A DNA stretch of 64,000 nucleotides, taken from the IMG/VR virus record IMGVR_UViG_3300029105_000372; one strand, given 5' to 3'. How positions within the stretch are numbered: position 1 is the first letter of the stretch; the number at the start of each line of letters is the position of its first letter. The translations under genes and the position numbers were made by a program. This DNA is from a virus. Shown piece by piece: positions 13,489 through 58,516 of the stretch. The notes under the pieces are model-generated. The model did no database searches. It saw only the letters and a list, made by a program, of their open reading frames with translations, and was not told where the DNA came from.

Positions 13489-13983
13489 TCACGCTGTTAC
13501 ATAATGAAGAGCCTCTTCGCCCTCATCAGTAATGGAGAATGACATTTCTCTCGCATTGTTGGAAGATCCGCTTGTCGGATATACTGCCATAACACCGGCC
13601 CACTCCCATTTGCCGTCAACACCCTCTTCTCCAAACCATAACTGGTATTTATCAACTTTTCCTGCTTCCTGCAGATCCAAGAGTTTCTTGTAATCAGCTT
13701 TCTCATACCATGCTTTGAAAGCAAGATCCCCTGTGTCCTCGATACCGTTAATGGTTCTTTTCTTCGTATCGGAAAGTGTTGTAACATCGAGTTTTTCCTT
13801 TTCTCCGCCGAGATCCGGGTACTCAGTAATGTCGATCAACTTCTCAAATGTTCCTGGAGCATCTGCTTTCTCGTGCATGAGATATGTCACATTTGTACAT
13901 TTTGCCATCTTCGTTCTACCTCCTTGTGTTTTCCTTTGCCTAAGAGGTAAAGCCTTGAATTTATTAAAACCACCGGCAGACAC
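13489..13983 (-). CDS. putative major tail protein (164 aa)
   Basis: Position between the head-tail joining genes and the chaperones. The size is typical of siphovirus major tail proteins. Confidence 0.45.
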   Translation of the reverse strand: MSAGGFNKFKALPLRQRKTQGGRTKMAKCTNVTYLMHEKADAPGTFEKLIDITEYPDLGGEKEKLDVTTLSDTKKRTINGIEDTGDLAFKAWYEKADYKKLLDLQEAGKVDKYQLWFGEEGVDGKWEWAGVMAVYPTSGSSNNAREMSFSITDEGEEALHYVTA

Positions 13984-14026
13984 CAGGCGAGTGCTTTTCG
14001 GGAGCGACCCTAGCCGATGGAGTTAA

Positions 14027-21563: not shown

Positions 21564-21910
21564 TTCTTTTTCATCCCTCTGATAGTATGCTTTTTACGGT
21601 TTCCTACAAATCTGCCGCCGCCCTTTTGGTTGCCATAGATAAATGCCGCCATATTCCCACCAGACAGTTTCTGCGTGACCGGTTTGAAATCTGTCTGTGT
21701 GTTTTCCTCCATAGGGCGTAATGATGGCGTTTCGGGTTTATACTGAGGTCTCCATACCATGGCAATTTTATTGTCTTTGGGATCCACAAATCCAATACCA
21801 TTTTCAAAGATAGTAAGATTAAGTCCATGCCGGATGCAGGCCTCTTCGATCTCTTTCTGTACCTCAACTGCTTTTTTCTGTGCTTCTGTCATACCATTTT
21901 CTCCTTTCAT
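21560..21910 (-). CDS. hypothetical protein with basic C-terminus (116 aa)
   Basis: ORF immediately downstream of the kinase gene. Confidence 0.3.
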   Translation of the reverse strand: MKGENGMTEAQKKAVEVQKEIEEACIRHGLNLTIFENGIGFVDPKDNKIAMVWRPQYKPETPSLRPMEENTQTDFKPVTQKLSGGNMAAFIYGNQKGGGRFVGNRKKHTIRGMKKK

Positions 21911-23637
21911 CGTACAGTTCTCCCAAGTCTATAAATATTTTCATCATTGATGATCGTAAATGCTGTGGAATCTTTGATTAAACAGCTATCTGGCGATACG
22001 GCTTCGCACTCAAAATCCTTAAATGCCTGTTTCTGGTACGAATATATTCTGATATTCCCATCAATCGGTATTGAAATATTGGAGTTATAAAAACATACAT
22101 TGCCAAGCCCACATTGATATTTAATGCGATCCTCGCTATACGCTACTCCATGTTCATTGCACACAAAGGTAAAGAACTGTCCGGCTCCGTTCTCCAACAC
22201 TATAAGCCATCCTCCGGTTATTTTATCTCTGTGTATTCCATAATTATTCACGGTATCGGTATATGGTATCTCAATATTTTTCCCATCCAGACTCACAATG
22301 AGGTTTTCTGCAAATCTACTTACAACGCACGAATGTCCCTCAGATACCGCAAAGTAACTCTCATACCCACATTTTGTAATCGTCCGTATTCCGTTGCCTG
22401 ATTTCGTGATCTGAATTGAGGTTAATGTATTGGCGGGACTTATGAAGTATACTGAATCTCCTGCTGCATAAATCGGGCTCTTGTATTTCTTATCAAACAC
22501 ATATTCTCTATCCGTGGTAAACCAGAACGCTCTATCATCCGCTTTTATTGCAATATTCTCTGTTCCAACCTCTGCAAAATGATATTTAATTCCGCTTTCG
22601 TATGCGAATTTATTCCCATTCTTAACTTCCACTACTTCTCCAGCATTATTGATATAACACTGCTCATTTAGAACAATTTTTACATCGTTTCCTTTGAGCA
22701 TCGTGATAAGTGTAAGTCCTCCTGTTACCCCTTGTGATACCGGCTTAGTAAGAACATTTGCGTTATTATCACATAGCGGACAACGAGCATATTTGCCATA
22801 ATAAAACTCCTGGTGTGCATCGCAGAATTTAAGGTGCTTTGCCATGTGTTTTAATTCATCCCCCATAGATCGGCTCTTATTCTCAAAAATCTTTTTCAGA
22901 GAATCAACCAGATAAGGAGATAAGTTTTTCCACGGTTTAATCGTTCTTGGTATTTTTACTTTTGGATTGTCTATTACGCATATTCCTCGTTTCATACGTT
23001 CTACAATATCCATATCTGGTGTCACAGTCCCGCCATGCGGATGAATCCTTGTAAGGGTTTTCCAAATCAAAATTGCCTCTGCGTATGTGTCTGTTTCCTC
23101 TGAAAAATCATTTCCTTTCATCAATGGATCTTTGAATAAGTCCATGCAAACTTCGCATTTTTCATCTTCCACGCTCCAACTATCACAATCTATAAAGTAC
23201 ACATTTCCAGTTTTGTCAAAGAGGATGTTCTGATCGTTCAGATCCCCAATATACACTCCGGCGGAATGTATATCTCTCACGGTGTCCTGTATCTTTACGA
23301 GTATTTCCAAAATATCTTTCGTGGTTATCCCATTCGCTTTCAGATATTTTTTACTTGTGAGAACTCTTACTTCCTCTCCTACGGCTTTTGGCATAATGTA
23401 ACCAATAAACTTATTGTTATTGTCATACACTGCCGTAATCGGTTTAATAGCCTCCTTTGGCAGCGGTTTGTCAATGAGCATGGCAACTTTCTTTTCCTTG
23501 GCTGCAATATCAACACAGGGTTTGTAAATTTTCAGAATATCGTTGCCAAACTCATAGATATATCCCTCGCCTCCCTCCGTTATGGGGGTAAGCTGTCTTA
23601 TCTTTTCTTTTCCTATCCTCGTTAGTGCCATTTTCAT
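21907..23637 (-). CDS. eukaryotic-like Ser/Thr protein kinase with C-terminal Zn-ribbon / beta-rich extension (576 aa)
   Basis: Gly-loop GGEGYIYEF, lysine in ILKIYKP, catalytic-loop-like IGDLNDQNILFD and DFG-like IDCDSW. C-terminal CPLC..C motifs. Confidence 0.65.
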   Translation of the reverse strand: MKMALTRIGKEKIRQLTPITEGGEGYIYEFGNDILKIYKPCVDIAAKEKKVAMLIDKPLPKEAIKPITAVYDNNNKFIGYIMPKAVGEEVRVLTSKKYLKANGITTKDILEILVKIQDTVRDIHSAGVYIGDLNDQNILFDKTGNVYFIDCDSWSVEDEKCEVCMDLFKDPLMKGNDFSEETDTYAEAILIWKTLTRIHPHGGTVTPDMDIVERMKRGICVIDNPKVKIPRTIKPWKNLSPYLVDSLKKIFENKSRSMGDELKHMAKHLKFCDAHQEFYYGKYARCPLCDNNANVLTKPVSQGVTGGLTLITMLKGNDVKIVLNEQCYINNAGEVVEVKNGNKFAYESGIKYHFAEVGTENIAIKADDRAFWFTTDREYVFDKKYKSPIYAAGDSVYFISPANTLTSIQITKSGNGIRTITKCGYESYFAVSEGHSCVVSRFAENLIVSLDGKNIEIPYTDTVNNYGIHRDKITGGWLIVLENGAGQFFTFVCNEHGVAYSEDRIKYQCGLGNVCFYNSNISIPIDGNIRIYSYQKQAFKDFECEAVSPDSCLIKDSTAFTIINDENIYRLGRTVR

Positions 23638-23646
23638 AATGCCCTC

Positions 23647-24333
23647 CTACAATACGATTGTTGTATCATCCTGGAATACTCTCTGATGTTTGTTTATAAA
23701 CCTCTTTACCCTTACTTCCTTACCGCTCTGCAGGGCTTCCGTAAATTCTTTCTTAAATTGTGCATCTTTCATGGCGAATCGTATTCCGTCAGACGCTACA
23801 CCAATATTCCTGTATTCGTCTTTTGGAAAAGCCTTTGTGGAAAAAATGACACCATCTTTGTACTGTTTGAGCATATCCTTATCCACATAATTATAGGCAA
23901 AGTATTTCGGGTATTCTCCGTCAGATAGTTCTTCAAACTCAATCGTTCCGTCCAGACGTTCTTTCACGATAAAACCATCTCCGCAGTAATCTACCATGAA
24001 ATGTGTCTCATTTTCAGTAACCATAAGGATCGTAAAACAAAGGAAATCTCTGATTGAGCCGGAAGTCTGCCCGAATAGACCAAGTATCTCTCCAAAAGCG
24101 GCTGCGGCAGTATATACACTACATTCATGTATAATTCTGCTGTCATTTTTCAAAAGATGGCAAAACGCTTTTGCTCCAACTTCCGAATGTTTCCCCTCCG
24201 AACAGCCATCGCAAACAACTTTCATCCCATCAAATTCAATTCCGTAGTCCTGGCAATTCGTACCGTAGTCGATATGTTGCTGACCGATTTTATTTATAAC
24301 CATTGTATTTCCTCCCACAAAAAAGAACGGCAA
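23647..24333 (-). CDS. PP2C-like Ser/Thr phosphatase (228 aa)
   Basis: N-terminal NCQDYGIE...VVCDGCSEGKHSEVGAKAF resembles the PP2C metal-binding motifs (xED..DGMGGH). Sits between the vWA and kinase genes. Confidence 0.5.
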   Translation of the reverse strand: MPFFFVGGNTMVINKIGQQHIDYGTNCQDYGIEFDGMKVVCDGCSEGKHSEVGAKAFCHLLKNDSRIIHECSVYTAAAAFGEILGLFGQTSGSIRDFLCFTILMVTENETHFMVDYCGDGFIVKERLDGTIEFEELSDGEYPKYFAYNYVDKDMLKQYKDGVIFSTKAFPKDEYRNIGVASDGIRFAMKDAQFKKEFTEALQSGKEVRVKRFINKHQRVFQDDTTIVL

Positions 24334-24366
24334 CCCCTTTTAGGATCGCCGTTCTACTCTCATTTT

Positions 24367-25041
24367 TTATACGTCAAAAAAATCATCCTGTTTCGATACG
24401 GCACTCTTGGAGTTTTCAATCACTGATTTTGATAAGCAGTTGAAAGCTCTTCTGAGTTCTGATGCAGAACTGCTTACATCGAGGATATTCTTGAATCCAA
24501 GGTCTTTCGCCTCCTGTGTTGCCTGTCCTCCGAAACTGATAAACGCAGTAACGATTTCTTCCACGTTCAGATACTCTACCGCTTTCTTTGCCTTTGCAAA
24601 CCCTCCCGGCTGAGAAGAGTTATCCATCCCATCTCCGAAAATTGCAAACACGGCCTTTACTCTCATTCCCTCATTTTTGAGGAAGTCTCTGTATTCTTTC
24701 AACTTCTCAGTTCCATCAATGATCGTATCGTACATAGCTGTGCATCCATCGGTGCTATACGAAGTGTCAAACTCTGTAATGCGCTTATAGCCTCCTACGG
24801 TTGCACTGTCGGAGAAGTCTGCTCTTGCAACCAGAATCTCATCACATTCCTTGGAATTGATAAGTGCATCTTTGAAATCCGAAAGAGCTTTTACCATATC
24901 TCTTTCATACATTCCCATAGAACCAGACTTGTCGATTCCGACAAAAATTAAATTGATGTTCTCACTGTCGATTTCATCAATGGAGGTATTTGCGATCTCA
25001 ACCTCATCTAATCCGTCAATTACCTGTTCTGTTTCATTCAT
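24367..25041 (-). CDS. vWA-domain protein (TerY-like; 224 aa)
   Basis: MIDAS motif IFVGIDKSGSMG with downstream Thr and Asp positions; a Rossmann-like alternating pattern. Confidence 0.7.
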   Translation of the reverse strand: MNETEQVIDGLDEVEIANTSIDEIDSENINLIFVGIDKSGSMGMYERDMVKALSDFKDALINSKECDEILVARADFSDSATVGGYKRITEFDTSYSTDGCTAMYDTIIDGTEKLKEYRDFLKNEGMRVKAVFAIFGDGMDNSSQPGGFAKAKKAVEYLNVEEIVTAFISFGGQATQEAKDLGFKNILDVSSSASELRRAFNCLSKSVIENSKSAVSKQDDFFDV

Positions 25042-25053
25042 ACCGGCTACCTC

Positions 25054-25962
25054 CTACAAAATATCATCTGTGCTTTTCACGATGTTTACATGGTACGTTT
25101 TCTTAAAATCATCAAAGGTCTGCTCAGTAACATCCTCAAACCCAGGAATGGAGGACATACAATCTTCCAGGATATAGATTTTCTGAGTGATCTCTGGGCG
25201 ATTAGCGTAATGTTCGAGAATCTGTTTAATGCTTTCCAATACGCAATGGCTCTTTGCCTCTCCTGCAATAATGATCTTGTCGTAATTTTCCAGTTTGTTC
25301 AGGAAGTCGATATTGATGTAGTTCTTTGTATCATACTCAGGTTTGATAATTCCGTACATTTCGCTGAGTGGATCCTGTCCTTTTACAAGACGCTGCGTAA
25401 CGGCTTTCTTTGCAACAGAGTGAAAATAAATCATGTTGGCAAACTGATTTTCAAATGCCGCACCAGATGTACCCTGTAAACAGTGGTAAGACCATACGCA
25501 TAAGGTTTTCTTTCCGTCTTTTTCCAGATGTTCTACATAGTCACGGCTCTGGCGAGGGTAGATAACAGCTCTGTACTTTCCAGAATCAAGGTCTGCCAGC
25601 GTAATCGGTGTGTAAGGAGCCGGATTGTTGCCATTTTCATCAATCCACCAGCACGGATGGAAAATCTGATGTGGTGTGTGGGTATCAATAGATACCGCAA
25701 TGTTTGTAATTTTATCCATATTGTTATAGATAAACTGTGTCATTCTCTCCACATCGCCGTGTGCTCCGGGAACTCCGAGTGCTCCATTATCCATGAAGTC
25801 CTGCTGCACATCAATTCCGAGAAACAATACTCTCTCTTTGTTTTGTGCTGCCGGTGTAAGCTGCTCATCGTTTGCCTTTCTCAAAATCTCATTTAGAGAA
25901 ATCGGATTTGTCTGTGAACCAATACTTGCGATGTTCACAATTTCATTGTAGGGTGTTTTCAT
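25054..25962 (-). CDS. isochorismatase-family cysteine hydrolase (nicotinamidase-like; 302 aa)
   Basis: LFLGIDVQQDF near the N-terminus and IIAGEAKSHCVLES catalytic-Cys region, both typical of the isochorismatase/PncA fold. Confidence 0.55.
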   Translation of the reverse strand: MKTPYNEIVNIASIGSQTNPISLNEILRKANDEQLTPAAQNKERVLFLGIDVQQDFMDNGALGVPGAHGDVERMTQFIYNNMDKITNIAVSIDTHTPHQIFHPCWWIDENGNNPAPYTPITLADLDSGKYRAVIYPRQSRDYVEHLEKDGKKTLCVWSYHCLQGTSGAAFENQFANMIYFHSVAKKAVTQRLVKGQDPLSEMYGIIKPEYDTKNYINIDFLNKLENYDKIIIAGEAKSHCVLESIKQILEHYANRPEITQKIYILEDCMSSIPGFEDVTEQTFDDFKKTYHVNIVKSTDDIL

Positions 25963-26024: not shown

Positions 26025-27476
26025 CTATTCGACTGTGATGCAATCATATCTCTCAGAATTGATTGTATTCTCCATAGCCTCAACCGGATTGTAGCCAAGG
26101 TTCTGCAGGATCTGTTTGAATACCGTCACGGACTGTCCGCTTGCAAGCTGCACACCCTTACGGTTGTGATCTGCATGGAATACATCGTGTCTGCTATTCA
26201 CATTCCAAAAGATGATGTTCGGGATTACATAACCGGCCTTGCAGAACTTATTTGCCATCTTGTCATAGAACGACCACTCACGGTTTCCGCAATAGTCAAT
26301 TTCCATATCAGAGATAACAACGATTGCTTTCGGCATTTCCTCCTGCGGAGTATTATGCTTTTTCGCAATTTCAAGAACCCTCTCAAAAGCAGCTTTAAGG
26401 TCTGTGTTGCCATCCCAATTTGCTCTGCTCACGTTGCAAATCTTCTGTTCAAGGGTTTCTCCCCTCAGAATAACCGTCTCCGGTCTGTCAGAGAACGTCA
26501 TAAACAGATTGTGGTATGCACCCACATTTCTCTCTGCAAAATAGATTGCAAGACCGATTGATGTTGCCATAGGTCTGCCTCTCATAGAACCGGACACATC
26601 CGCCATAACTAAAGCGTTTGTTCCTTTCTCCACATAATCTGGCAATGCTTTCCACTGTGCTTCGAGTACCTTACTGCTCTCTCTGCCATAAAGGATCTTC
26701 TCAACAATATCGTAAGGGAACAGTGTTGAAGCATTGATTTTTACCTCTCCCTTTTCTGCCTTGTTGATAAACTCTCCAAACCTCTCAGCATCATGTTTCA
26801 TAAATGCCTTGCGGTAAATCATCATCGCACGGCTCGGAACTTCCGGGTATTTGATTTCATCCCATCTTCCGGCTGACATAAGACTTTCAACGACACCGAT
26901 CTGTTTTCTCATGCTACGGACGATTCTCTTGAAATTGTAGACCGGATAGCCTAATTTCTGCGCCGTAAGGATTCCGAGTTTTCTTGTGGCAGAGCTGCTT
27001 GCATCTGCGGTCTTAATCCATTTTGCAAGTAAAGAAATTGCATTTCCGGCATTGAGGTTCTGTAAATCTTCCTCAAACTGTTTCTTCATTGCCGCCCACA
27101 TATCGTCCTCCAATGGAGTTCCGATAAGCTCATACAGATCATCATATCTTCCGAATACACCAACCAGATCAAGGTTTGGTCTGAGTGCTTCTGGGTGTTT
27201 CTCTGCCATATAACGAATAATGGTTCTGAAAGTCTTTCTCTCTCCAAGACCGCCACGAATGTCTCTTGCATAGAACGCAATCTTTGTAGCAAAGAGTTTA
27301 TCCTGTGCGTATGCCTCAGCAAACAGAGTGGTAATTCTGTTCTCATCAGCCTCTCTCAGCGATCCGATTGTACCAAACAGATCCAGTCGGGCATCGCCAG
27401 AGGTATTCAGTGCCACTGCACCGTTTTCAGTCCGGGTAAATCTACCCTCTTCTCTCATTGCATCTGCAAAACTCAT
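26025..27476 (-). CDS. large vWA-domain protein (483 aa; phage DUF2828-like, possibly Ro60-related vWA)
   Basis: MIDAS motif LVMADVSGSMRGRP followed by a long alpha/beta region. This architecture is common in phage genomes. Family assignment is from memory only. Confidence 0.5.
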   Translation of the reverse strand: MSFADAMREEGRFTRTENGAVALNTSGDARLDLFGTIGSLREADENRITTLFAEAYAQDKLFATKIAFYARDIRGGLGERKTFRTIIRYMAEKHPEALRPNLDLVGVFGRYDDLYELIGTPLEDDMWAAMKKQFEEDLQNLNAGNAISLLAKWIKTADASSSATRKLGILTAQKLGYPVYNFKRIVRSMRKQIGVVESLMSAGRWDEIKYPEVPSRAMMIYRKAFMKHDAERFGEFINKAEKGEVKINASTLFPYDIVEKILYGRESSKVLEAQWKALPDYVEKGTNALVMADVSGSMRGRPMATSIGLAIYFAERNVGAYHNLFMTFSDRPETVILRGETLEQKICNVSRANWDGNTDLKAAFERVLEIAKKHNTPQEEMPKAIVVISDMEIDYCGNREWSFYDKMANKFCKAGYVIPNIIFWNVNSRHDVFHADHNRKGVQLASGQSVTVFKQILQNLGYNPVEAMENTINSERYDCITVE

Positions 27477-27678
27477 GTTTTCCTACCTTTCCAGGACTCT
27501 CATTTACGGAATTGAACCGTTTCACATTGTTTTTTAGACATTTGCTTTAACCATTGTGATTGCTGTAGGAGTCCCTATAAAATTGTTTACCGTTTCATTG
27601 TCAGGACACTATTGGGGTTTATGATTAACAGTCATATCCAAAAGGGTTGCTGTAAGTGTCCCATGTAAAGTTTTATGC

Positions 27679-27969
27679 CTATCTGGCTAACTTTTTAAGT
27701 TCATACCGCCTGTTATGTATCGCTCCGACAGAACGACCAATCTTCTCAGACAGTTCAGAATCGGTAATCTCATGTTTGATTACCAGTGCATCTTCCTCCG
27801 TAGTCCACGGATGAGACGGATATAGAAATGACGTTTTGCTGTAATATCGCCTATGCTGCCTCTGACACGCTTTATGATACTTTTCCATATCCCTATAATC
27901 TTCTTTTCGGTTCATAGGCAACCTCTTTCTTTTTACATGACGCTGTTTCAAACGGGAAAATATTGTCAA
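27679..27969 (-). CDS. small basic HTH-like protein (96 aa)
   Basis: WTTEEDALV...IGRSVGAIHNRRYEL resembles a sigma-r4/Myb-like HTH. Confidence 0.3.
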   Translation of the reverse strand: MTIFSRLKQRHVKRKRLPMNRKEDYRDMEKYHKACQRQHRRYYSKTSFLYPSHPWTTEEDALVIKHEITDSELSEKIGRSVGAIHNRRYELKKLAR

Positions 27970-28012
27970 TGGAATTTTCTGTTTTGAAAGATTGCTGTAA
28001 GCGTCACTTAAT

Positions 28013-28108
28013 TGCCCCGACAGGACTTGAACCCGTATGCTCGATTGCTGTAAGGAACACTCCTGTCAACCATGTTCCATCCGGTTTACCATAACCGGCA
28101 ATCGGGGC
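28013..28108 (-). ncRNA. tRNA-like gene, atypical: canonical acceptor and T arm but 13-nt anticodon loop and 17-nt variable region
   Basis: Acceptor GCCCCGA/TCGGGGC, D arm CCGG-TTATGGTAAA-CCGG, 6-bp stem GGAACA/TGTTCC enclosing TGGTTGACAGGAG, T arm ACGGG-TTCAAGT-CCTGT. No 7-nt anticodon loop could be formed. Confidence 0.5.
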
Positions 28109-28110
28109 AG

Positions 28111-28237
28111 AGACGATGAGAGGAATCGAACCTCTATCCGCAGCTTGGGATTGTTATTGAAAGGAGTTTGCTGATTATGCCACTAACATGACATTCTTCT
28201 TAACAGAGCTGCTGTGCTCCCTTTGCACCACATCGCC
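28111..28237 (-). ncRNA. tRNA-like gene with ~56-nt insertion in the anticodon loop (127 nt)
   Basis: Acceptor GGCGATG/CATCGTC (one G.U pair), D arm GTGC-AAAGGGA-GCAC, anticodon stem GCAGC...GCTGC enclosing 63 nt, variable GGAT, T arm AGAGG-TTCGATT-CCTCT. Confidence 0.55.
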
Positions 28238-28242
28238 ATATA

Positions 28243-28360
28243 GAGTGAGGGACGGACTCGAACCGCCGACAACGTCCTTAGCATGGAATGAAAGATTGCT
28301 GTTCAGATCACAAACATGATCCATTTTTCTTTCGTGCTCTACCAACTGAGCTACCTCACT
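28243..28360 (-). ncRNA. tRNA-like gene with ~45-nt insertion between D and T arms (118 nt)
   Basis: Acceptor AGTGAGG/CCTCACT (7/7), U8-A9, D arm GCTC-AGTTGGTA-GAGC, then ~70 nt containing the stem GAAAGA/TCTTTC around a 34-nt loop, then T arm GGCGG-TTCGAGT-CCGTC. Confidence 0.55.
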
Positions 28361-28425
28361 CATGTAATTGGCGCATCTTCTTGATTTGTAAGGACATTTG
28401 CGCCATCGCCTTGATTGGAGAGGGT

Positions 28426-28532
28426 AGGATTTGAACCTACACTACATTTGCCTCTTTGGGTGTATTTGCAACATTATTAAAATGATACGTTTTCACAATA
28501 CAAATTGCGTCTGCCAGTTCCGCTACCTCTCC
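28426..28532 (-). ncRNA. tRNA-like gene (Leu-type D arm) with expanded anticodon region (107 nt)
   Basis: Acceptor GGAGAGG/CCTCTCC (7/7), D arm GCG-GAACTGGCAGA-CGC, anticodon stem ATTTG...CAAAT enclosing 32-50 nt, T arm GTAGG-TTCAAAT-CCTAC. Confidence 0.55.
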
Positions 28533-28565
28533 ATATTCAGTTTTCAATACGGAAATCCGTATGAG

Positions 28566-28684
28566 TTGCGTGGGAGGGAATCGAACCCTCATCTCTTCAT
28601 TTCCAGTGAAAAAAGAATAGTTGCTGTCCGTGCCACATGGAACATGACACCGCTTTAATGTTCTATCCATTGAACTACCACGCA
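28566..28684 (-). ncRNA. tRNA-like gene with ~43-nt insertion between D and T arms (119 nt)
   Basis: Acceptor TGCGTGG/CCACGCA (7/7), U8-A9, D arm GTTC-AATGGATA-GAAC, 65 nt with no canonical anticodon arm, T arm GAGGG-TTCGATT-CCCTC. Confidence 0.55.
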
Positions 28685-28687
28685 ATA

Positions 28688-28759: not shown

Positions 28760-29002
28760 ATAATGCAACCTCGCCCCTAGGTTGCTTTGTAAGTTCTGCT
28801 ATGTCGTTCCTTGCGTTCCTCACTTAACCGGTGCTAACTACGACAGTATGTGACCGGCGGACTTGATTAAACATTTCCGTACACCCGCTTAATGCCCCAC
28901 TATTGGCGGTTCTGCCGAGACCAATGGCAATGTCGATAGGAAATGTCTTTCGGGGAATCTCTCTAACCCAACTGGTTTATCGTCCGAAGTCAGGACGGCT
29001 TT

Positions 29003-29365: not shown

Positions 29366-29682
29366 ACCTTTCTTCCTCTCTGTCTACGCCTTTCGGCTTA
29401 TTGCCCCGTTCCGGACCGGGATTGGATAGGTAAGGAATCGGACCTTACACTGGAATATTACGATAGTCGCAGATTACCTCATGTGTTTGGTGCATACGGA
29501 TTTTTGAACCTATCGTATCAAAGGTGGGTGGCTGCCATTCCTGCTTATTCCAATCACTGCACTTTGCGTTGTTGCCACACCGGGACGCACCTTTTCCTCA
29601 ACCGTACTAATATTGCAGTTACCCTTTACTGCCTACTATCCAATTCTGAAACCTCCTCCACCGGTGGAATACGGTTTCATAA

Positions 29683-30117: not shown

Positions 30118-30526
30118 ATGCAGTCCGGCGGCAGCTTGGATGGTTGCCACTACCGAACCGATGCAACGTGTAAGACAGTTGCCAACAAAGGTATTTCATT
30201 TTTTAATGTGGTTCTCGGACCTTGCACCCCTCCACATGGTTCTCATAATCCACCGACTACATACTCAAAGAACCTTTGACGAGTCCAACTCTTTATCGCC
30301 TTACCTCGGATGTACGTTGTTATCGCAGTTCTCCGCCTCTACTACATTCCTCTGCGTTTTGATAGATTTTTTTGTGTAGTTACGGCTCTATCTGCCTTTC
30401 TACTCATGGTTTTCATCTTGAAAATACTCATGCCAAAAGTCACTTAGTGATCACCGGAACCTCGCCACCGCCAATTTTCTTTCCTGTTAAAGCCGGACTA
30501 AGAAAATCAGTTAAGAAATCCGCTCG

Positions 30527-30599
30527 TCCTACGGTGGGGAGTCGAACCCCACTTTCCCCGGCATGGTGTCCGTGGCATTTCCAGTTATGCTATCGTAGG
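30527..30599 (-). ncRNA. tRNA-like gene of canonical length (73 nt) with unpairable anticodon stem (pseudo-tRNA?)
   Basis: Acceptor CCTACGA/CCGTAGG, D arm GCAT-AACTGGAA-ATGC, T arm TGGGG-TTCGACT-CCCCA. The 17-nt anticodon region ACGGACACCATGCCGGG does not form a 5-bp stem. Confidence 0.4.
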
Positions 30600-30803
30600 C
30601 ATCGTTGCAACAATGGTCTTTAGCGTGACTTACGCAAGCTCTCCAAGTTTAAGTCCTGTCGGCTTTCCCGGACTACTCACATAAGCCTCTCAGTGAGCAT
30701 TGCAATCTCCCTATTTAATGATTGCTTACCACGGCTTTCGCCAATACTTTTCAGCCGGAACACTAAACCAACTATAAACAGTCAGCGTTATTCTCAGTTG
30801 AAA

Positions 30804-31103: not shown

Positions 31104-31168
31104 GGAATTTTCTTTGTATCGCCAAGAACATTAGGAAAGAAGCGGTGGGAATCTTGATCGCTAGAGCT

Positions 31169-31202
31169 GCACCCACAGGTGGAATCGAACCACCACACTA
31201 CA
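31169..31202 (-). other. tRNA 3' fragment (T arm plus 3' acceptor strand only)
   Basis: GGTGG-TTCGATT-CCACC followed by TGTGGGT. No matching 5' acceptor strand or D arm lies upstream. Abuts the HU gene stop. Confidence 0.35.
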
Positions 31203-38528: not shown

Positions 38529-39146
38529 TTATCCATGACAGCCCACCGCCTTTAACATACTGATTTTCTCTACCAGAACATCAACCGTTGCGTTGAGCTT
38601 GCTGTTCTTAATGCAAACTTCCTGATAATCCTCATATAATTTTCCACCATTCAGCATTTCAGTCTGTTCCTTGACTGTGGCATCCAGCTCTGCATTGAAA
38701 CTTTCAAGCTGTTCAATCTGTTTCCTCAGATTATCATTCTCTTTTTCTACTTTCGCATTTCTTTCTTCCAGAGATTTCTTGTTTGCTTTCAGTTTTTCAA
38801 CCTCGCTCGTAAGTTCTCCGAGTTTCTTTATCATTTCCTGCTCAGACATGGTTCCCTTTTCCTCCGTCTCTTCTACTCCGAGAAGTACCTTAATCTGTTT
38901 CTTTGAAACGTGATATGTCATTGCAAGGGCGGCTATGGATTCCCCGGAAGAATACTTTTGCTCAATCTCTGTTTTCTTCACGGAAATATCCACACCATTC
39001 GTATTGAACATACGCTTGTAACCGCCCTCTTCCAGAATTTCTACTATTGTCTGCGTGTCGCACACATTCAAGTCCGCAAGAATGGGTATCTGTCTCTTAT
39101 GGTTCTTCGCCAAGCGGTAATCCATTAAGATTTGTCCCTTATCCAT
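38529..39146 (-). CDS. HTH plus coiled-coil protein (205 aa)
   Basis: N-terminal DNA-binding-like region and a C-terminal heptad-rich segment (EKLKANKKSLEERNAKVEKENDNLRKQIEQLE). Confidence 0.35.
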   Translation of the reverse strand: MDKGQILMDYRLAKNHKRQIPILADLNVCDTQTIVEILEEGGYKRMFNTNGVDISVKKTEIEQKYSSGESIAALAMTYHVSKKQIKVLLGVEETEEKGTMSEQEMIKKLGELTSEVEKLKANKKSLEERNAKVEKENDNLRKQIEQLESFNAELDATVKEQTEMLNGGKLYEDYQEVCIKNSKLNATVDVLVEKISMLKAVGCHG

Positions 39147-39759
39147 TCTTACCTCCCTGTTTTACCCCCCCCACGGAGAAAAAGTCCTCATATATCGCTT
39201 TGATAACTTCCGCATCGTAGAGTGCATTGTGTTTTTGACCTTTCGGCAAATCAATTCCTCTGTTTGTAAGGAGCTGTTCTCTCGAAATGTCAAAAGCTGC
39301 CTTTTCTGAAATATCAAGCATCGTTGCAATGTCCTGATTGATGTCGTGACAAGCCGGTGTAATAAACTCAGGCAACTTCATAGCGTTTCCTGCCAATAAG
39401 TCAATCAGTAACACCATATCGTAATGCGAGACATCTGAAACGAATACCGCAGCATAATCACTGTCAAAATTAGCGTCCATTTCAAGCCATTCCATAAGTT
39501 CGCAACAAACATCTGCCTTACTGCCGATTACAGTCGTTGTTTTATTGTCGGCTGCCAGGCTTTCTTCTAACTCCGCATTGCCACTCAAAACCAAATGATC
39601 GAGAACATTCTTCTCAATCCATTCATCACACATACCCTCATCATAGTCCGTCAACTCTGCATAGAACCTATCTCCTGTGTCTGAGACAATTCCTATGCTG
39701 ATAAGAGTTGTGTCCTTACGCAGACCAGTAAACTCTGTGTCAAAAAAATAGGTTCTCAT
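39139..39759 (-). CDS. DEDD-family 3'-5' exonuclease (DnaQ-like; 206 aa)
   Basis: Exo I motif FFDTEFTGL and Exo III-like HNALYDAEVIKAIYEDF. A G8 tract (39175-39182) lies in its last codons. Confidence 0.6.
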   Translation of the reverse strand: MRTYFFDTEFTGLRKDTTLISIGIVSDTGDRFYAELTDYDEGMCDEWIEKNVLDHLVLSGNAELEESLAADNKTTTVIGSKADVCCELMEWLEMDANFDSDYAAVFVSDVSHYDMVLLIDLLAGNAMKLPEFITPACHDINQDIATMLDISEKAAFDISREQLLTNRGIDLPKGQKHNALYDAEVIKAIYEDFFSVGGVKQGGKNG

Positions 39760-51457: not shown

Positions 51458-52147
51458 ATGGAGGTCTTAGGCATGATTGATATTACAAACTGCAATAAAA
51501 TCATAGTCGATACCATTGGGAAAACAGAGAAGATCATTGAATGGTATCAGCAAAATAAAGATTGGTTGGATGCCGAAGAGTTCCGCATCCCCATCCCCTC
51601 CGCATTGGTTGAGCTGCCGGAAGAAGATATTAAATTCTATTATGAGCAGGAGGGTGTATTCGTCAGGCTGCATCTGTATATGGGTGGCGTGTATGTCTGC
51701 AATTATCGGTATGATCCGAAAACTCAGGAAATCGAAAACATTGTCTTTCCTGCCGGATTAAGCAAAGAGAAACGAAAGGTTGCCCGGATGGTTCTTGCCG
51801 CTGACAGAACGCCATACAAGGAGGCATTGAAGTTCCATTCTCTCATGTGTTTTGCAACTCATTACCGCAACTGCATTGAGACTACGGAGCAGAAAGAGAA
51901 ACGCATTTCTCATAAGCATCGAAAAATCCTGCGCCGTTCCGGCGGTGCTACACCACTGATAACCACATACCGCATTGATAGCAGACCTGTTCCTGCAGAC
52001 GGTACAAAAAGGCACTACACAAAGCCTACCGAACAGGTAAGTGTGAGGGGATTTTACCGAACTACCAAAACCGGTAAACGTGTATGGGTTCGCCCTTTCA
52101 CAAAATACAATGGAAATTCTGGAAATAACAAAACATACAAAGTATAG
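51458..52147 (+). CDS. hypothetical protein with basic C-terminal region (229 aa)
   Basis: RBS GGAGGT upstream. First gene downstream of the invertible segment. Confidence 0.4.
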   Translation: MEVLGMIDITNCNKIIVDTIGKTEKIIEWYQQNKDWLDAEEFRIPIPSALVELPEEDIKFYYEQEGVFVRLHLYMGGVYVCNYRYDPKTQEIENIVFPAGLSKEKRKVARMVLAADRTPYKEALKFHSLMCFATHYRNCIETTEQKEKRISHKHRKILRRSGGATPLITTYRIDSRPVPADGTKRHYTKPTEQVSVRGFYRTTKTGKRVWVRPFTKYNGNSGNNKTYKV

Positions 52148-52157
52148 GAGGATCACT

Positions 52158-53363
52158 ATGAGTAATTTGAAAGTTTATGCAAAAACCATCGAAGATGAGG
52201 CTTTGGAACAGATTAACACTCTTCTGTCTCAGGATGCCTTTAAGGACTGTAAGGTTCGTATCATGCCGGATGTTCACGCCGGAAAGGGATGTGTCATTGG
52301 CTTTACTGCGGATCTCGGAAACAAAGTAATTCCGAACATCGTTGGCGTGGATATTGGATGCGGTATGCTCTGCGTAAGCATCGGACACGGAGAAATCGAC
52401 TTTGATAGATTGGATAAAGTCATTCGCACTTATGTTCCAAGCGGAAGAAATGTGCATGACGGCCGGCAGATCCGTTTTGATGAATTGCAGGATCTTTACT
52501 GCTACCGAGAATTGCGAGATACCAAACGCATTGAGCGTTCTATCGGCACTCTCGGCGGTGGCAATCATTTCATTGAGGTTGATGTTGCGGAGGACGGTTA
52601 TAAGTATCTGGTTATTCATACTGGCAGCCGCAATCTTGGAAAACAGGTGGCGGACTACTATCAGAACCTTGCCTATGAATTGATGTGTGGCAAGGACGAT
52701 TTGTACGAGCGTCAGAATAAGCTCATTGAGGAATACAAGGCTGCCGGAAGGAAATCCGAGATTGAGGGTGCAATAAAAGAACTGCACAAAAACTTCCGTG
52801 CCACTACTCCGAAGTTACCAAAGGATCTGTGCTACTTAGAGGGAAAGTATCGTGAACAGTATTTACATGATATGCGTATCTGCCAGAAGTTTGCATATTT
52901 CAACCGTGTGATGATCGCACAGATTATATGCAATCATATGGGATGGGGAGTCGGTGCGGAAATACCGGATTATTTTGAGTGCATCCACAATTATATCGAC
53001 CACGACTCCAACATCGTCCGTAAAGGTGCTATCTCTGCCAAGTACGGAGAAAAGGTTCTTATCCCTATCAATATGCGTGATGGGTGTATTCTCGGAACTG
53101 GCAAGGGAAATGAGGATTGGAACTGTTCTGCGCCGCATGGAGCTGGACGGCTTATGTCACGGATGAAAGCAAAGGAAACTCTAAACATGAGTGATTATTC
53201 AAACTCTATGGATGGCATCTACACTACTTCCGTATCAGAGGAAACCATAGATGAGGCACCGATGGCATACAAGCCTATTGATGAGATTGTGGAATGTATT
53301 GGAGAAACCGTTGATATTCTTGCCATTCTGAAACCTATATATAATTTCAAGGCAAGCGAATAA
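52158..53363 (+). CDS. rtcB: RtcB-family RNA 3'-phosphate/5'-OH ligase
   Basis: MPDVHAGKG, GVDIGCGM, GGGNHFIEV and CSAPHGAGR motifs. The track ORF starts at 52080, but the likely start is ATG 52158 after the RBS TAGGAGGA. Confidence 0.8.
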   Translation: MSNLKVYAKTIEDEALEQINTLLSQDAFKDCKVRIMPDVHAGKGCVIGFTADLGNKVIPNIVGVDIGCGMLCVSIGHGEIDFDRLDKVIRTYVPSGRNVHDGRQIRFDELQDLYCYRELRDTKRIERSIGTLGGGNHFIEVDVAEDGYKYLVIHTGSRNLGKQVADYYQNLAYELMCGKDDLYERQNKLIEEYKAAGRKSEIEGAIKELHKNFRATTPKLPKDLCYLEGKYREQYLHDMRICQKFAYFNRVMIAQIICNHMGWGVGAEIPDYFECIHNYIDHDSNIVRKGAISAKYGEKVLIPINMRDGCILGTGKGNEDWNCSAPHGAGRLMSRMKAKETLNMSDYSNSMDGIYTTSVSEETIDEAPMAYKPIDEIVECIGETVDILAILKPIYNFKASE

Positions 53364-57797: not shown

Positions 57798-57996
57798 GTC
57801 TCTTCCTCCTACCTGTGTATTTCCCTACATGGTTGATATAACCGCAATAACAGCATTTTACCTCGTCTCTAAGGCGGCTCTTATAAATCTGATTTCCACA
57901 ACATCCGCAGTCAAATTCCTGTGGATTGATTTTCTTTTTCTTCATAAACGCATCACTCCTTTGGAAATAATTTGTCATAAAACCATTCAATATCAC
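57790..57996 (-). CDS. Zn-ribbon small protein (68 aa)
   Basis: CGCCGNQIY...CCYCGYINH. Confidence 0.35.
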   Translation of the reverse strand: MILNGFMTNYFQRSDAFMKKKKINPQEFDCGCCGNQIYKSRLRDEVKCCYCGYINHVGKYTGRRKRLG

Positions 57997-58516
57997 GGCG
58001 AACCTTAAAATATCTAAATTTATCCTCTTCGCTCGTGCTTCTTACACTGATATACCCGTGAAAAGCATTTACCTCTTCTACTACCACCGGAAGCTCTGCA
58101 TATTCCGTCTTTAACATCCACTCACTTCCGAGAGGGTATTTATCGAATTTTGAATAGTCGATCTTTTCGTCCACATGAAACGGAAGATCGTATTTTCTTT
58201 TATCCACAGCCAAATCGTCAATATAGCAAGTGGCATACACTTTTCTTGGATTGTTACCATATTTTTCAACGTTTTCCGGCAGATTATCATTGACCGCATC
58301 GAACTCTAATCCGAATTTACTGCACCAGTCCACCGCTTCTTTCAGATGTTCTTCCACTCTGCAAGTCCAAAGGATCACTTTTGCTCCCTCTGTTCTGCGT
58401 TGAATAAGATGCTGTATCAGTTTTTTGTTCGGCGCGCCAATTCCGGGCCACTTACTTTCGCAGAGTGTTCCGTCAAAATCAACCGCATAAATCGGTACAA
58501 AACTACTCATCTCCAT
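57953..58516 (-). CDS. HAD-superfamily phosphatase (187 aa)
   Basis: DxDGT motif AVDFDGTL, plus ILWTCR and DD motifs. Confidence 0.5.
   Translation of the reverse strand: MEMSSFVPIYAVDFDGTLCESKWPGIGAPNKKLIQHLIQRRTEGAKVILWTCRVEEHLKEAVDWCSKFGLEFDAVNDNLPENVEKYGNNPRKVYATCYIDDLAVDKRKYDLPFHVDEKIDYSKFDKYPLGSEWMLKTEYAELPVVVEEVNAFHGYISVRSTSEEDKFRYFKVRRDIEWFYDKLFPKE

What the first reader, a model, noticed from the sequence alone, without database searches (positions are those of the whole stretch)
28013..28684. Five consecutive tRNA-like genes with intact acceptor, D and T arms but anticodon regions expanded by 6 to ~56 nt
For each element I can pair a perfect or near-perfect 7-bp acceptor stem, a canonical D arm and a canonical T arm, yet the anticodon arm is aberrant. 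In 28013-28108 there is a 13-nt loop closed by GGAACA/TGTTCC. In 28111-28237 the stem GCAGC/GCTGC encloses 63 nt. In 28243-28360 the stem GAAAGA/TCTTTC surrounds 34 nt. In 28426-28532 the stem ATTTG/CAAAT encloses at least 32 nt. In 28566-28684 there are 65 nt between the D and T arms. The next gene, tRNA-Met(CAT), and ten further tRNAs in the array are canonical. The inserts are far too short for group I introns. The same genome encodes RtcB (52158-53363), a MazF-like endoribonuclease (61933-62469), a Pol-beta NTase (61199-61924) and a HAD phosphatase (57953-58516). One option is a phage tRNA processing or splicing system, with an endonuclease cutting and RtcB joining the exons. The other is a family of tRNA-shaped decoy or Y-RNA-like RNAs, for example against host anticodon nucleases. 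I am not aware of a described bacterial or phage system with short intervening sequences in tRNA anticodon loops.
Basis: seen in the sequence. Interest (0 to 1): 0.85.

Follow-up and report, generated by a model that had tools for sequence, protein, structure and literature searches.

The report
Phage tRNAs carrying Y-RNA-like inserts
Five neighbouring phage tRNA genes each carry the same small structured RNA module in or instead of the anticodon arm, and that module is also the stand-alone RNA found next to the adjacent Ro60-like gene, so they are most likely tRNA/Y-RNA hybrids of a kind not described before rather than ordinary genes or plain introns.

Summary
On the minus strand, 28012-28684 holds five tRNA-shaped genes; Rfam's tRNA model hits four, each with a 50-62 nt gap in the anticodon arm. 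The inserts are one conserved module: a covarying 7-bp hairpin (H1) followed by single-stranded YU-ACAGCAAY. In A, C and B, deleting it restores a perfect anticodon arm. D's module is degenerate. E has the module in place of the anticodon arm. The same module occurs circularly permuted and stand-alone three times (F1-F3, 27491-28007). The next gene (26025-27476, DUF2828+vWA) folds like Ro60. Across about 230 related and distant phage or prophage loci, module-bearing tRNAs and stand-alone modules sit beside this gene, the only conserved protein neighbour. No insert-free allele was found. Of 97 families, 57 regain a canonical anticodon arm (2.6 expected). F2 and F3 also resemble Dictyostelium Class I RNAs, below Rfam threshold. 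Best reading: tRNA/Y-RNA chimeras that bind the Ro60-like protein, a permuted analogue of YrlA. Excision as a new kind of intron remains a serious rival. No splicing endonuclease or conserved splice signal was seen. Host family: Lachnospiraceae.

The parts
28566..28684 (-). tRNA-like A. Insert about 28612-28658, between position 26 and 27-29. H1 28630-28650, motif ACAGCAACT 28619-28627. Intact anticodon arm UUUCA-CUGGAAA-UGAAG at 28595-28611 (anticodon GGA).
   Evidence: RF00005 46.6 bits. Exon finder score 7/7. Coordinates. Relatives carry GGU or GAU in the same body, with a compensatory 31-39 change.
28416..28532 (-). tRNA-like D. Stem AUUUG/CAAAU (28501-28505 / 28446-28450) encloses 50 nt. 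The module is degenerate here (28462-28488). No U33 is possible.
   Evidence: RF00005 43.7 bits.. Relatives have an intact module (L032/L126), a deletion (L142), or a Pro-UGG version at the same array position.
28243..28360 (-). tRNA-like C. Insert 28288-28332 sits between positions 28 and 29. H1 28305-28322, motif ACAGCAAUC 28294-28302. Restored arm CG|UCC-AUGCUAA-GGACG (anticodon GCU). G-1:C73 extra pair.
   Evidence: RF00005 41.8 bits..
28111..28237 (-). tRNA-like B. Insert 28151-28206 (56 nt) in the anticodon loop at 31/32-32/33. H1 28177-28194, motif UCAGCAAAC 28166-28174. Restored arm GCAGC-UUCCCAA-GCUGC (Gly CCC, U73).
   Evidence: RF00005 45.7 bits. ARAGORN -i gives tRNA-Gly(ccc) with a 56-nt intron..
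28012..28109 (-). tRNA-like E. Acceptor, D-like and T arms, but H1 (28054-28078) + CCUUACAGCAAUC (motif 28043-28051) replace the whole anticodon arm. It starts 1 nt after B.
   Evidence: Structural scan. No anticodon-arm solution. H1 covaries in relatives: GGAACAU/GUGUUCC, GAAACAU/GUGUUUC, AGAACAU/GUGUUCU.
27935..28007 (-). F1, stand-alone permuted module: 5'-GUGACGC-UU-ACAGCAAUC-(hairpin)-GCGUCAU-GU. It lies upstream of the 78-aa ORF.
   Evidence: Fold z = -2.65. H1 covariation GTGACGC/GCGTCAT versus GTGATGC/GCATCAT in relatives. Coordinates.
27601..27662 (-). F2, stand-alone module: GGGACAC-UU-ACAGCAACC ... GUGUCCU-GA.
   Evidence: RF01414 Dicty_Class_I_RNA 23.6 bits over the full model.
27491..27575 (-). 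F3, stand-alone module: GGGACUC-CU-ACAGCAAUC ... T-arm-like ACGG-UUCAAUU-CCGU (27506-27520) ... GAGUCCU-GG. It lies about 15-100 nt upstream of the Ro60-like start codon.
   Evidence: RF01414 23.7 bits. An equivalent element lies 70-150 nt upstream of the Ro60-like start codon in most distant phages.
27679..27915 (-). 78-aa ORF between F1 and F2. Present only in the closest lineage.
   Evidence: No Pfam family. Weak PHROG hit to a transcription regulator. Present in 74 loci.
26025..27476 (-). Ro60-like protein: helical repeats followed by a vWA domain with MIDAS residues D293, S295, S297, T358, D390.
   Evidence: Pfam DUF2828 145 bits, DUF7788 134 bits, VWA_2. phrog_850 'RNA-binding protein'. 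AF2 model pLDDT 66. The Foldseek top 7 PDB hits are all Ro60: phage phiLo 9l5y at E 3.5e-7, plus Xenopus, Deinococcus and human. Invariant residues.
52080..53363 (+). RtcB RNA ligase, 24 kb away. It is a possible functional partner, not shown to be linked.
   Evidence: Pfam RtcB 212 bits. In some relatives RtcB lies 3-4 kb downstream of the Ro60-like gene. It is not a conserved neighbour overall.

Best explanation
The five genes encode tRNA/Y-RNA chimeras. Each is a complete L-shaped tRNA body carrying a 40-56 nt module. The module is an A-rich linker, a 7-bp hairpin H1, 2-3 nt, single-stranded ACAGCAAY, and a U-rich linker. In A, C and B it is grafted into the anticodon stem or loop. In D the module is degenerate. 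In E it replaces the anticodon arm. The module is the cognate RNA element of the Ro60-like ring protein encoded immediately downstream. The same element occurs as three stand-alone RNAs (F1-F3) built like classical Y RNAs: a terminal stem with the conserved motif at the 5' side of the internal loop. Inferred mechanism: the array is transcribed with the Ro60-like gene region. RNase P and 3' processing release the tRNA-shaped RNAs, since they have 7-bp acceptor stems and B and E are only 1 nt apart. The Ro60-like protein binds H1 + ACAGCAAY. The tRNA half then serves as the second, tRNA-mimicking domain of the RNP, as in bacterial YrlA but circularly permuted: the ends sit at the acceptor stem and the Ro-binding helix is capped. 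The RNP would act in tRNA or RNA damage handling or quality control during infection, possibly together with RtcB. F1-F3 are either free Y RNAs or feedback sites in the leaders of the 78-aa and Ro60-like ORFs. What is shown: the shared module, its covariation, its two topologies, the Ro60 fold, and the genomic linkage across distant phages. What is inferred: binding, lack of splicing, and biological role.
For: 1) All five inserts share H1 + ACAGCAAY. ACAGCAAYY occurs 10 times in the window against 2.5 expected, always on the minus strand. 2) H1 in 33 sequences is 97.8% paired, 5 of 7 pairs show compensatory changes, and 0 of 500 shuffles reach this. 3) The stand-alone permuted copies F1-F3 have covarying terminal stems. 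4) The adjacent ORF has a Ro60 fold. 5) In 80 close relatives, the module-bearing tRNAs always form one block at the Ro60-proximal end of the array. 6) In 80 distant phages (Ro60-like 37-45% identical to the query protein P0160) and 68 bacterial contigs, tRNAs with a hairpin+ACAGCAA insert and stand-alone modules lie within 4 kb of the gene. There are 198+208 modules on the gene strand against 55+36 on the other strand. The Ro60-like protein is the only conserved protein neighbour. 7) E-type members have no anticodon arm, so the module has a role of its own. 8) No insert-free allele or close paralogue exists. None was found in 80 relatives. Exact junction patterns gave 0 hits in the metagenome and viral collections. 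The best canonical match is 77% identical. 9) tRNA identity does not fit the anticodon. Class-I bodies carry Ser anticodons. One body carries GGU, GGA or GAU in near-identical phages. An extra G-1:C73 pair occurs in 8 of the 9 families that have C73, with Thr, Ser, Ile or UUA anticodons; among 126 canonical families C73 is seen only in tRNA-His. 10) Precedent: Y RNAs with tRNA-like domains lie next to Ro60 in bacteria and phages (PMC4201824). Two Y-like RNAs lie upstream of phage phiLo Ro60 (PMC12135203). Ro/TROVE with a tRNA-like partner serves as an RNA-repair platform in phages (PMC7824862).
Against: The anticodon arm is kept far better than a mere scaffold would need. 57 of 97 families regain a 5-bp stem plus a 7-nt loop with U33 and R37, against 2.6 expected. 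The stem pairs that bridge the insert covary, for example GUA..CC/GGUAC versus AUG..CC/GGCAU. Position 37 follows the anticodon as in real decoders: G37 in 11 of 12 cases when nt 36 is G, and A37 in 29 of 29 otherwise. Most anticodons supplied are absent from the canonical part of the array. The insertion point varies: 26/27 to 32/33, and 39/40 in some families. Linker lengths also vary, which is odd for a fixed RNP geometry. Known YrlA RNAs have no anticodon arm. Binding to the Ro60-like protein is untested. The AF2 model is only moderately confident (pLDDT 66).
Confidence: 0.55

Rival explanations
1. True introns of a new kind. The module is cut out of the pre-tRNA by an unidentified endonuclease, perhaps recruited by the Ro60-like protein. 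The halves are joined, for example by RtcB, giving functional decoding tRNAs. The excised piece, linear or circular, would be a Y/Class-I-like RNA.
For: Removing one stretch gives sequences that ARAGORN calls as normal tRNAs in every family tested. 57 of 97 families give a perfect anticodon arm against 2.6 expected. Stem pairs covary across the insert. G37 goes with Pro and Leu(CUN) anticodons, and U73 with both Gly anticodons. The anticodons mostly complement the canonical set. An insert inside the anticodon stem should be incompatible with ribosome binding unless it is removed (established knowledge of tRNA-ribosome contacts). RtcB is in the genome and lies 3-4 kb from the Ro60-like gene in some relatives.
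Against: There is no conserved sequence at either junction, and the motif-to-3'-junction distance varies from 3 to 15 nt even within one family. The flank-flank helix is no better than composition predicts: 3.68 versus 3.57. No EndA-like or other candidate endonuclease was found in 41 window proteins. RtcB is not a conserved neighbour. E-type members and F1-F3 cannot be introns. Identity mismatches and the G-1:C73 pair would cause mischarging or no charging. Anticodons duplicate canonical ones in several genomes: GCU in the window, and GUU and UGG elsewhere. There are no intron-less alleles anywhere.
Confidence: 0.3
2. The module is a small self-cleaving ribozyme. Its circular permutation between the two contexts would be typical of such RNAs. 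It would cut the tRNA or the leader, producing 2',3'-cyclic phosphate ends for RtcB.
For: There are two topologies of one helix-junction motif with invariant nucleotides: C-G, U.G and ACAGCAA. RtcB is present.
Against: No Rfam ribozyme model matches, even at E up to 10. The conserved core is only about 12 nt plus one helix. One site of self-cleavage cannot excise an insert. The consistent linkage is to an RNA-binding protein gene.
Confidence: 0.05
3. Decaying tRNA pseudogenes hit by a selfish miniature DNA element, or a DNA-level signal (promoter or recombination site) that happens to lie in tRNA genes.
For: D in the window has a degenerate module and no U33. One relative has a deletion (L142). 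The Gly-UCC family shows A33, G33 and a 6-nt loop. Block composition varies between near-identical phages.
Against: Compensatory changes occur in H1 and in anticodon stems. The arrangement is conserved across phages whose Ro60-like proteins are only 37-45% identical to the query protein P0160. All copies are strand-specific, as expected for RNA. The extended motif is confined to 27.5-28.7 kb and is not found at other gene starts. There are no insert-free alleles.
Confidence: 0.05

Closest known systems
Bacterial and phage Y RNAs of the YrlA type with Ro60/Rsr (Chen et al. 2014, PMC4201824; phage phiLo Yrl1/2, PMC12135203)
   Same: They are encoded in multiple copies right beside a Ro60-fold gene. 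They have a stem plus a conserved single-stranded motif as the presumed protein site. They have a second domain that mimics tRNA (T arm, D arm, 7-bp acceptor stem). They are associated with RtcB in the same genome or operon.
   Different: The protein is DUF2828, not Pfam TROVE. The motif is ACAGCAAY, not the bulged GGUCCGA/CGAA helix. The RNA ends are at the acceptor stem and the Ro-type helix is capped, so the topology is circularly permuted. Most members keep a complete canonical anticodon arm, which YrlA lacks. The Rfam YrlA model scores only 31 bits at best against a cut-off of 69.
Dictyostelium Class I RNAs (RF01414; Kjellin et al. 2021, PMC7919456)
   Same: They have a terminal 6-7 bp stem starting with an invariant 5' G. 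The motif (C)CUUACAGCAA(U) lies directly 3' of the 5' strand. A variable loop follows, then a 3' ...C-UG tail. Length is about 60-85 nt. F2 and F3 match the whole Rfam model.
   Different: Scores of 23.6-23.7 bits are below the 41.5-bit cut-off. A distant phage copy scores 15.7. Class I RNAs are reported only in dictyostelids, are not known to be linked to a Ro60-like protein, and are not embedded in tRNAs.
Archaeal/eukaryal protein-spliced tRNA introns (bulge-helix-bulge, EndA + RtcB)
   Same: They are short inserts in or near the anticodon arm, also at non-canonical positions such as 29/30. Exons re-form a normal tRNA. RtcB is the natural ligase.
   Different: The host and phage are bacterial. 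No EndA homologue was seen. No bulge-helix-bulge was evident, though this was not formally modelled. The inserts carry a conserved protein-type motif shared with non-intron RNAs.
Bacterial group I introns in tRNA anticodon loops
   Same: They interrupt bacterial-type tRNA genes at the anticodon loop.
   Different: Group I introns are 200 nt or longer and self-splicing, and they match Rfam models. These inserts are 40-56 nt with no such match.

Membership tests
tRNA (RF00005) | Score at or above the Rfam gathering cut-off of 29 bits over the full cloverleaf model | tested here: met
   A 46.6, D 43.7, C 41.8 and B 45.7 bits over model 1-71, with a 50-62 nt local gap in the anticodon arm. E gave no hit.
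tRNA (RF00005) | Contiguous 5-bp anticodon stem with a 7-nt loop in the gene as encoded | tested here: not met
   ARAGORN without intron mode calls none of the five. The arm is only restored after deleting the insert. E has none.
Y RNA / YrlA (Ro60 partner RNAs) | Encoded next to a Ro60 orthologue | tested here: met
   The Ro60-fold ORF 26025-27476 lies directly downstream. The linkage holds in about 230 loci.
Y RNA / YrlA (Ro60 partner RNAs) | Terminal stem formed by the 5' and 3' ends, flanking an internal loop with a conserved motif | tested here: met
   Met for F1-F3. In A-E the same helix is capped, so the topology is permuted.
Y RNA / YrlA (Ro60 partner RNAs) | Match to Rfam YrlA RF02553 at 69 bits or more, or the canonical bulged Ro60-binding helix | tested here: not met
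   The best YrlA score is 31.1 bits, on two canonical tRNAs. None falls on the module. The motif differs.
Y RNA / YrlA (Ro60 partner RNAs) | Physical binding to the Ro60 protein | not testable with these tools
   This needs a pull-down or gel shift.
Ro60 / TROVE proteins | Ring of helical repeats followed by a vWA domain with a MIDAS site | tested here: met
   The AF2 secondary structure shows helices over 29-276 and vWA over 288-472. The top 7 Foldseek PDB hits are all Ro60, E 3.5e-7 to 1.6e-5. MIDAS residues are invariant. Ring closure itself cannot be judged at pLDDT 66.
Ro60 / TROVE proteins | Pfam TROVE domain match | tested here: not met
   Pfam gives DUF2828 + DUF7788 + VWA_2 and no TROVE.
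Dictyostelium Class I RNA (RF01414) | Rfam gathering score of 41.5 bits | tested here: not met
   F3 23.7 and F2 23.6 bits. L240 copy 15.7 bits.
Dictyostelium Class I RNA (RF01414) | 5' G, 6-bp terminal stem, adjacent 11-nt motif CCUUACAGCAA, 3' C-UG(U) | tested here: met
   See the alignments. E contains CCUUACAGCAA exactly. The features are as described in PMC7919456.
Protein-spliced tRNA intron (archaeal/eukaryal type) | EndA-family splicing endonuclease available | tested here: not met
   None was found among 41 window proteins scanned. The host genome was not scanned.
Protein-spliced tRNA intron (archaeal/eukaryal type) | Bulge-helix-bulge at the exon-intron junctions | not tested
   The junctions were only inspected by eye. 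There is no conserved junction sequence, and the flank helix is not above composition.
Protein-spliced tRNA intron (archaeal/eukaryal type) | Mature spliced tRNA present in RNA | not testable with these tools
   No RNA data were available. Exact spliced-junction patterns were absent from the DNA collections.
Group I intron in tRNA | Group I core (P3-P9), 200 nt or longer, with an Rfam match | tested here: not met
   The inserts are 40-56 nt with no Rfam hit.

The most novel reading that the evidence does not exclude
These are 'two-for-one' genes. A Ro60-like RNP recognises the H1-ACAGCAA module inside a dedicated set of phage pre-tRNAs and directs its excision. This would yield a working tRNA and a free, possibly RtcB-circularised, Y/Class-I-type RNA. 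It would be a third, protein-guided kind of tRNA intron, and the first in the bacterial world. As a corollary, Dictyostelium Class I RNAs would be the Y RNAs of a DUF2828-type Ro protein family shared by phages, bacteria and eukaryotes.
Probability: 0.2. Interest if true: 0.92.

Novelty: new variant of a known kind. Interest (0 to 1): 0.8.

Why it matters
Ro60 and its Y RNAs are conserved from bacteria to humans, yet the purpose of the tRNA-like half of bacterial Y RNAs is still unknown. This locus shows a large, previously unnoticed branch of that system. The protein family has 6,584 cluster representatives at 50% identity and is common in human-gut Lachnospiraceae prophages and in jumbo phages. 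In this branch the protein-binding module is built into otherwise complete tRNAs that carry many different, fast-changing anticodons. That gives a direct experimental handle on what Ro-type RNPs do with tRNAs, whether repair, shielding, decoy or maturation. If the module is excised, it would overturn the view that bacteria and phages have only self-splicing tRNA introns. The resemblance to Dictyostelium Class I RNAs offers a testable protein partner for an abundant eukaryotic RNA class whose function is open. A cultured lysogen, Diplocloster hominis CSJ-3, makes the tests feasible.

Tried and rejected
- ARAGORN intron mode gave a clean model only for B (Gly-CCC). For A, C and D it forced arbitrary introns and fake long variable arms, so I replaced it with my own exon finder.
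It is not a conserved element.
- Promoter idea for CTTACAGCAAYC: the extended motif occurs only at 27.5-28.7 kb, has covarying RNA stems, and is strand-specific. The sigma-70 scan was uninformative.
- MazF recognition site (U^ACA): nothing links the distant MazF gene to the elements, and one motif per insert cannot give two cuts. I dropped this.
- Known ribozymes or other Rfam families: none matched, apart from weak Class I hits and spurious snoRNA-type hits.
- A pseudoknot between the GUUN loop and AAY/ACA is possible on paper, but the residues are invariant, so it cannot be tested.
- Insert-free alleles: none in 80 close relatives. There were zero exact spliced-junction matches for C and Val in metagenome contigs and for B in viral contigs. 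No canonical tRNA is more than 77% identical to any 'spliced' sequence.
- Distant single-protein locus searches (P0122, P0130) found nothing.
- A PDB sequence search did not reveal Ro60. Only the fold search did.
- Literature searches found no description of short phage tRNA inserts, of DUF2828 function, or of Class I RNAs outside Dictyostelia. Avesson 2011, on Class I RNA-binding proteins, is not held.
Full report
**1. The observation**

All relevant features are on the minus strand.
- Rfam's tRNA model hits four elements over the full model, with 50-62 nt skipped inside the anticodon arm: A 28566-28684, D 28416-28532, C 28243-28360 and B 28111-28237, at 41.8-46.6 bits.
- ARAGORN in normal mode calls none of them. 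It does call the flanking tRNA-Met and nine more tRNAs in the array.
- A structural scan of my own finds perfect 7-bp acceptor stems, D stems and 5-bp T stems for all five, including E at 28012-28109.
The NTase and HAD calls are weak.

**2. The inserts are one conserved module**

Reading the minus strand shows that every insert contains a hairpin ending ...CAU / GUG..., followed after 2-3 nt by ACAGCAAY.
- ACAGCAAYY occurs 10 times in the window against 2.5 expected, always on this strand.
- A pattern scan and synteny searches retrieved about 120 related loci.
- In 33 non-identical module sequences, the 7-bp helix H1 is 97.8% paired. Five of 7 pairs show compensatory changes. The C-G pair and the terminal U.G pair are invariant. 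None of 500 shuffles reaches this. This set had been pre-filtered for at least 6 of 7 pairs.
- The flanks are A-rich on the 5' side and U-rich on the 3' side, about 9 nt each. Their pairing is not better than composition predicts.

**3. The tRNA parts**

Deleting one stretch restores a perfect anticodon arm (5 bp, 7-nt loop, U33, purine 37) in three elements. Only 1-3% of shuffles do so per element.
- A: anticodon GGA, insert after position 26-28.
- C: anticodon GCU, insert at 28/29.
- B: anticodon CCC, insert at 31/32-32/33.

D keeps a 5-bp stem, but its module is degenerate and it has no U33. E has no anticodon arm at all; H1 + CCUUACAGCAAUC sits between the D and T arms.

Relatives show covariation across the insert. 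Val-UAC reads GUA|..|CC-AUUACAA-GGUAC in one lineage and AUG|..|CC-AUUACAA-GGCAU in another. All 'spliced' sequences are called as ordinary tRNAs by ARAGORN.

Over all loci, 57 of 97 families (acceptor x H1) give a perfect arm against 2.6 expected. The junction is mostly at 26/27-31/32, and in some Lachnospiraceae prophages at 39/40.

**4.

Between E and the next long ORF lie three further copies of the motif, F1-F3. In these the helix is formed by the two ends of a 60-85 nt element, and ACAGCAAY opens the enclosed loop. This is a circular permutation of the insert.
- F3 also contains a T-arm-like hairpin.
- Their terminal stems covary, for example GUGACGC/GCGUCAU versus GUGAUGC/GCAUCAU, and GGGACAC/GUGUCCU versus GGGACGC/GCGUCCU.

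The next ORF (26025-27476) is DUF2828 + vWA by Pfam and 'RNA-binding protein' in PHROGs. Its AlphaFold model (pLDDT 66) has helical repeats followed by a vWA domain. Its seven best PDB matches are all Ro60, led by the Ro60 of Thermus phage phiLo. The MIDAS residues are invariant.

**5. Linkage**

- In 80 close relatives, the module-bearing tRNAs always form one contiguous block at the Ro60-proximal end of the array. The block's composition differs between near-identical phages (GGU/GGA/GAU; UGG or the D type; GCU/UCC/ACU; CCC present or absent; E).
- The protein family is large: 6,584 representatives at 50% identity.
- In 80 distant phage contigs (37-45% identity to the query protein P0160, including jumbo phages), tRNAs with hairpin+ACAGCAA inserts lie within 4 kb on either side of the gene in many. 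Rfam confirms several.
- A stand-alone module lies 70-150 nt upstream of the start codon in most.
- Modules are 4-6 times more frequent on the gene's strand.
- No other protein is conserved in these neighbourhoods. RtcB lies 3-4 kb away only in some.
- Bacterial contigs place the lineage in Lachnospiraceae. There is a 96% identical copy, with the tRNA block, in the cultured Diplocloster hominis CSJ-3.

**6. Chimera or intron?**

For excision:
- The anticodon arms are well preserved, and pairs bridging the insert covary.
- G37 goes with Pro and Leu(CUN) anticodons and A37 with all others. U73 goes with both Gly anticodons.
- The anticodons supplied are mostly missing from the canonical set.
- An insert in the anticodon stem should be incompatible with decoding.

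Against excision:
- There are no conserved junction sequences.
- The motif-to-junction distance varies from 3 to 15 nt within one family.
- No EndA-like nuclease was found in 41 scanned proteins.
- RtcB is not consistently linked.
- E-type and stand-alone copies cannot be introns.
- No insert-free allele or close paralogue exists anywhere.
- tRNA identity often contradicts the anticodon. Class-I bodies carry Ser anticodons. One body carries three different anticodons. An extra G-1:C73 pair occurs in 8 of the 9 families that have C73, with Thr, Ser, Ile or UUA anticodons; among 126 canonical families C73 occurs only in tRNA-His.
- Some anticodons duplicate canonical ones in the same genome.

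I rate the non-spliced tRNA/Y-RNA chimera at 0.55 and the intron at 0.30. That the module is the cognate RNA element of the Ro60-like protein I hold at about 0.8.

**7. Comparison with known systems**

- **YrlA-type Y RNAs.** Bacterial and phage Y RNAs lie next to Ro60, come in several copies, and contain a tRNA-like domain. In Mycobacterium smegmatis YrlA this domain is cut by RNase P and receives CCA (PMC4201824). Phage phiLo has two Y-like RNAs upstream of its Ro60 (PMC12135203). Ro/TROVE with a tRNA-like partner is regarded as an RNA-repair platform in phages (PMC7824862). The present RNAs work like this family but fail its sequence tests: the YrlA model, the canonical Ro-binding helix, and the Pfam TROVE domain. 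They also differ in topology and in keeping an anticodon arm.
- **Dictyostelium Class I RNAs.** Unexpectedly, F2 and F3 match the whole Rfam model of these RNAs at 23.6-23.7 bits, below the 41.5-bit cut-off. They share its hallmarks: a 5' G, a 6-bp terminal stem, CUUACAGCAAU, and a 3' C-UG. Those RNAs are reported as unique to dictyostelids and have no known Ro-type partner (PMC7919456). A distant phage copy scores only 15.7 bits. I therefore treat this as a lead, not as membership.
- **Known tRNA introns.** Group I and archaeal-type introns do not fit (membership table).

**8. Verdict**

The finding is real, non-random and widespread. As far as the held literature shows, it is undescribed. 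It is best filed as a new variant of the Ro60/Y-RNA system in which the protein-binding module is embedded in complete tRNAs. A still more novel reading, protein-guided tRNA introns, remains open. RNA-level data from the cultured lysogen would settle it.

Noticed in passing
window 27492-27574 and 27602-27661 (minus strand): F3 and F2 match the entire Rfam model of Dictyostelium Class I RNA at 23.7 and 23.6 bits (cut-off 41.5). They share the 5' G, the terminal stem, CUUACAGCAAU and the 3' C-UG. Class I RNAs are reported as unique to dictyostelids and have no known Ro-type partner.
   Followed up: partly
loci L232, L233, L242, L243, L264, L239, L240; window C 28243-28360: Module-bearing tRNAs often have C73 with a G at position -1, which gives an extra acceptor pair as in tRNA-His. 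Their anticodons are Thr, Ser, Ile or UUA. Canonical tRNAs of the same loci have C73 only in tRNA-His.
   Followed up: partly
window 21907-25962 (minus strand); L231 6366-8797: Directly downstream of the Ro60-like gene lie a PP2C phosphatase (23647-24333) and a kinase-like protein with a TCAD9 hit (21907-23637). This resembles a vWA/PP2C/kinase triad. A similar trio sits next to the Ro60-like gene in about 10 distant loci.
   Followed up: no
window 39139-39759 (minus strand): This ORF matches a DEDD 3'-5' exoribonuclease (Rv2179c-like / RNase T). It is a possible nuclease partner for a Ro-type RNP.
   Followed up: no
window 30526-30599 (minus strand): ARAGORN calls a tRNA with an 8-nt anticodon loop and the four-base 'anticodon' acca. 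It is conserved in most close relatives.
   Followed up: no
window about 31165-31200 and about 29420-29450 (minus strand): There are orphan T-arm-plus-3'-acceptor-like pieces, GGTGG-TTCGATT-CCACC-TGTGGGT and TAAGG-TCCGATT-CCTTA, with no matching 5' half.
   Followed up: no
window 28761-29002, 29366-29681, 30119-30525, 30600-30802: There are long ORF-free gaps inside the tRNA array with no Rfam match. They may hold further non-coding RNAs.
   Followed up: no
window 13953-14020 (minus strand): int-alpA RNA (RF02996) scores 43.8 bits, above its gathering score.
   Followed up: no
L282 (Diplocloster hominis CSJ-3, NZ_JAWDIY010000002.1 127324-134772): A cultured Lachnospiraceae isolate carries a 96% identical Ro60-like gene with the block *gat *tgg *E upstream, on a 355-kb contig. 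It is presumably a prophage and would be a usable experimental system.
   Followed up: partly
L302, L294, L315 (Lachnospiraceae contigs): In one family the module sits in the 3' strand of the anticodon stem (39/40), for example UUACG-CUGAAAA-C|module|GUAA. The '5' of the anticodon' rule seen in the window is therefore not universal.
   Followed up: partly
L243 6985-7149: A HEARO RNA (RF02033) hit of 51.7 bits, below its cut-off of 83, lies in a distant Ro60-like locus.
   Followed up: no
window, 5' flanks of tRNAs (e.g. 28685-28687, 28533-28535, 28238-28240): Most tRNAs of the array, canonical and module-bearing alike, are preceded by TAT. This may be a shared leader or processing signal.
   Followed up: no
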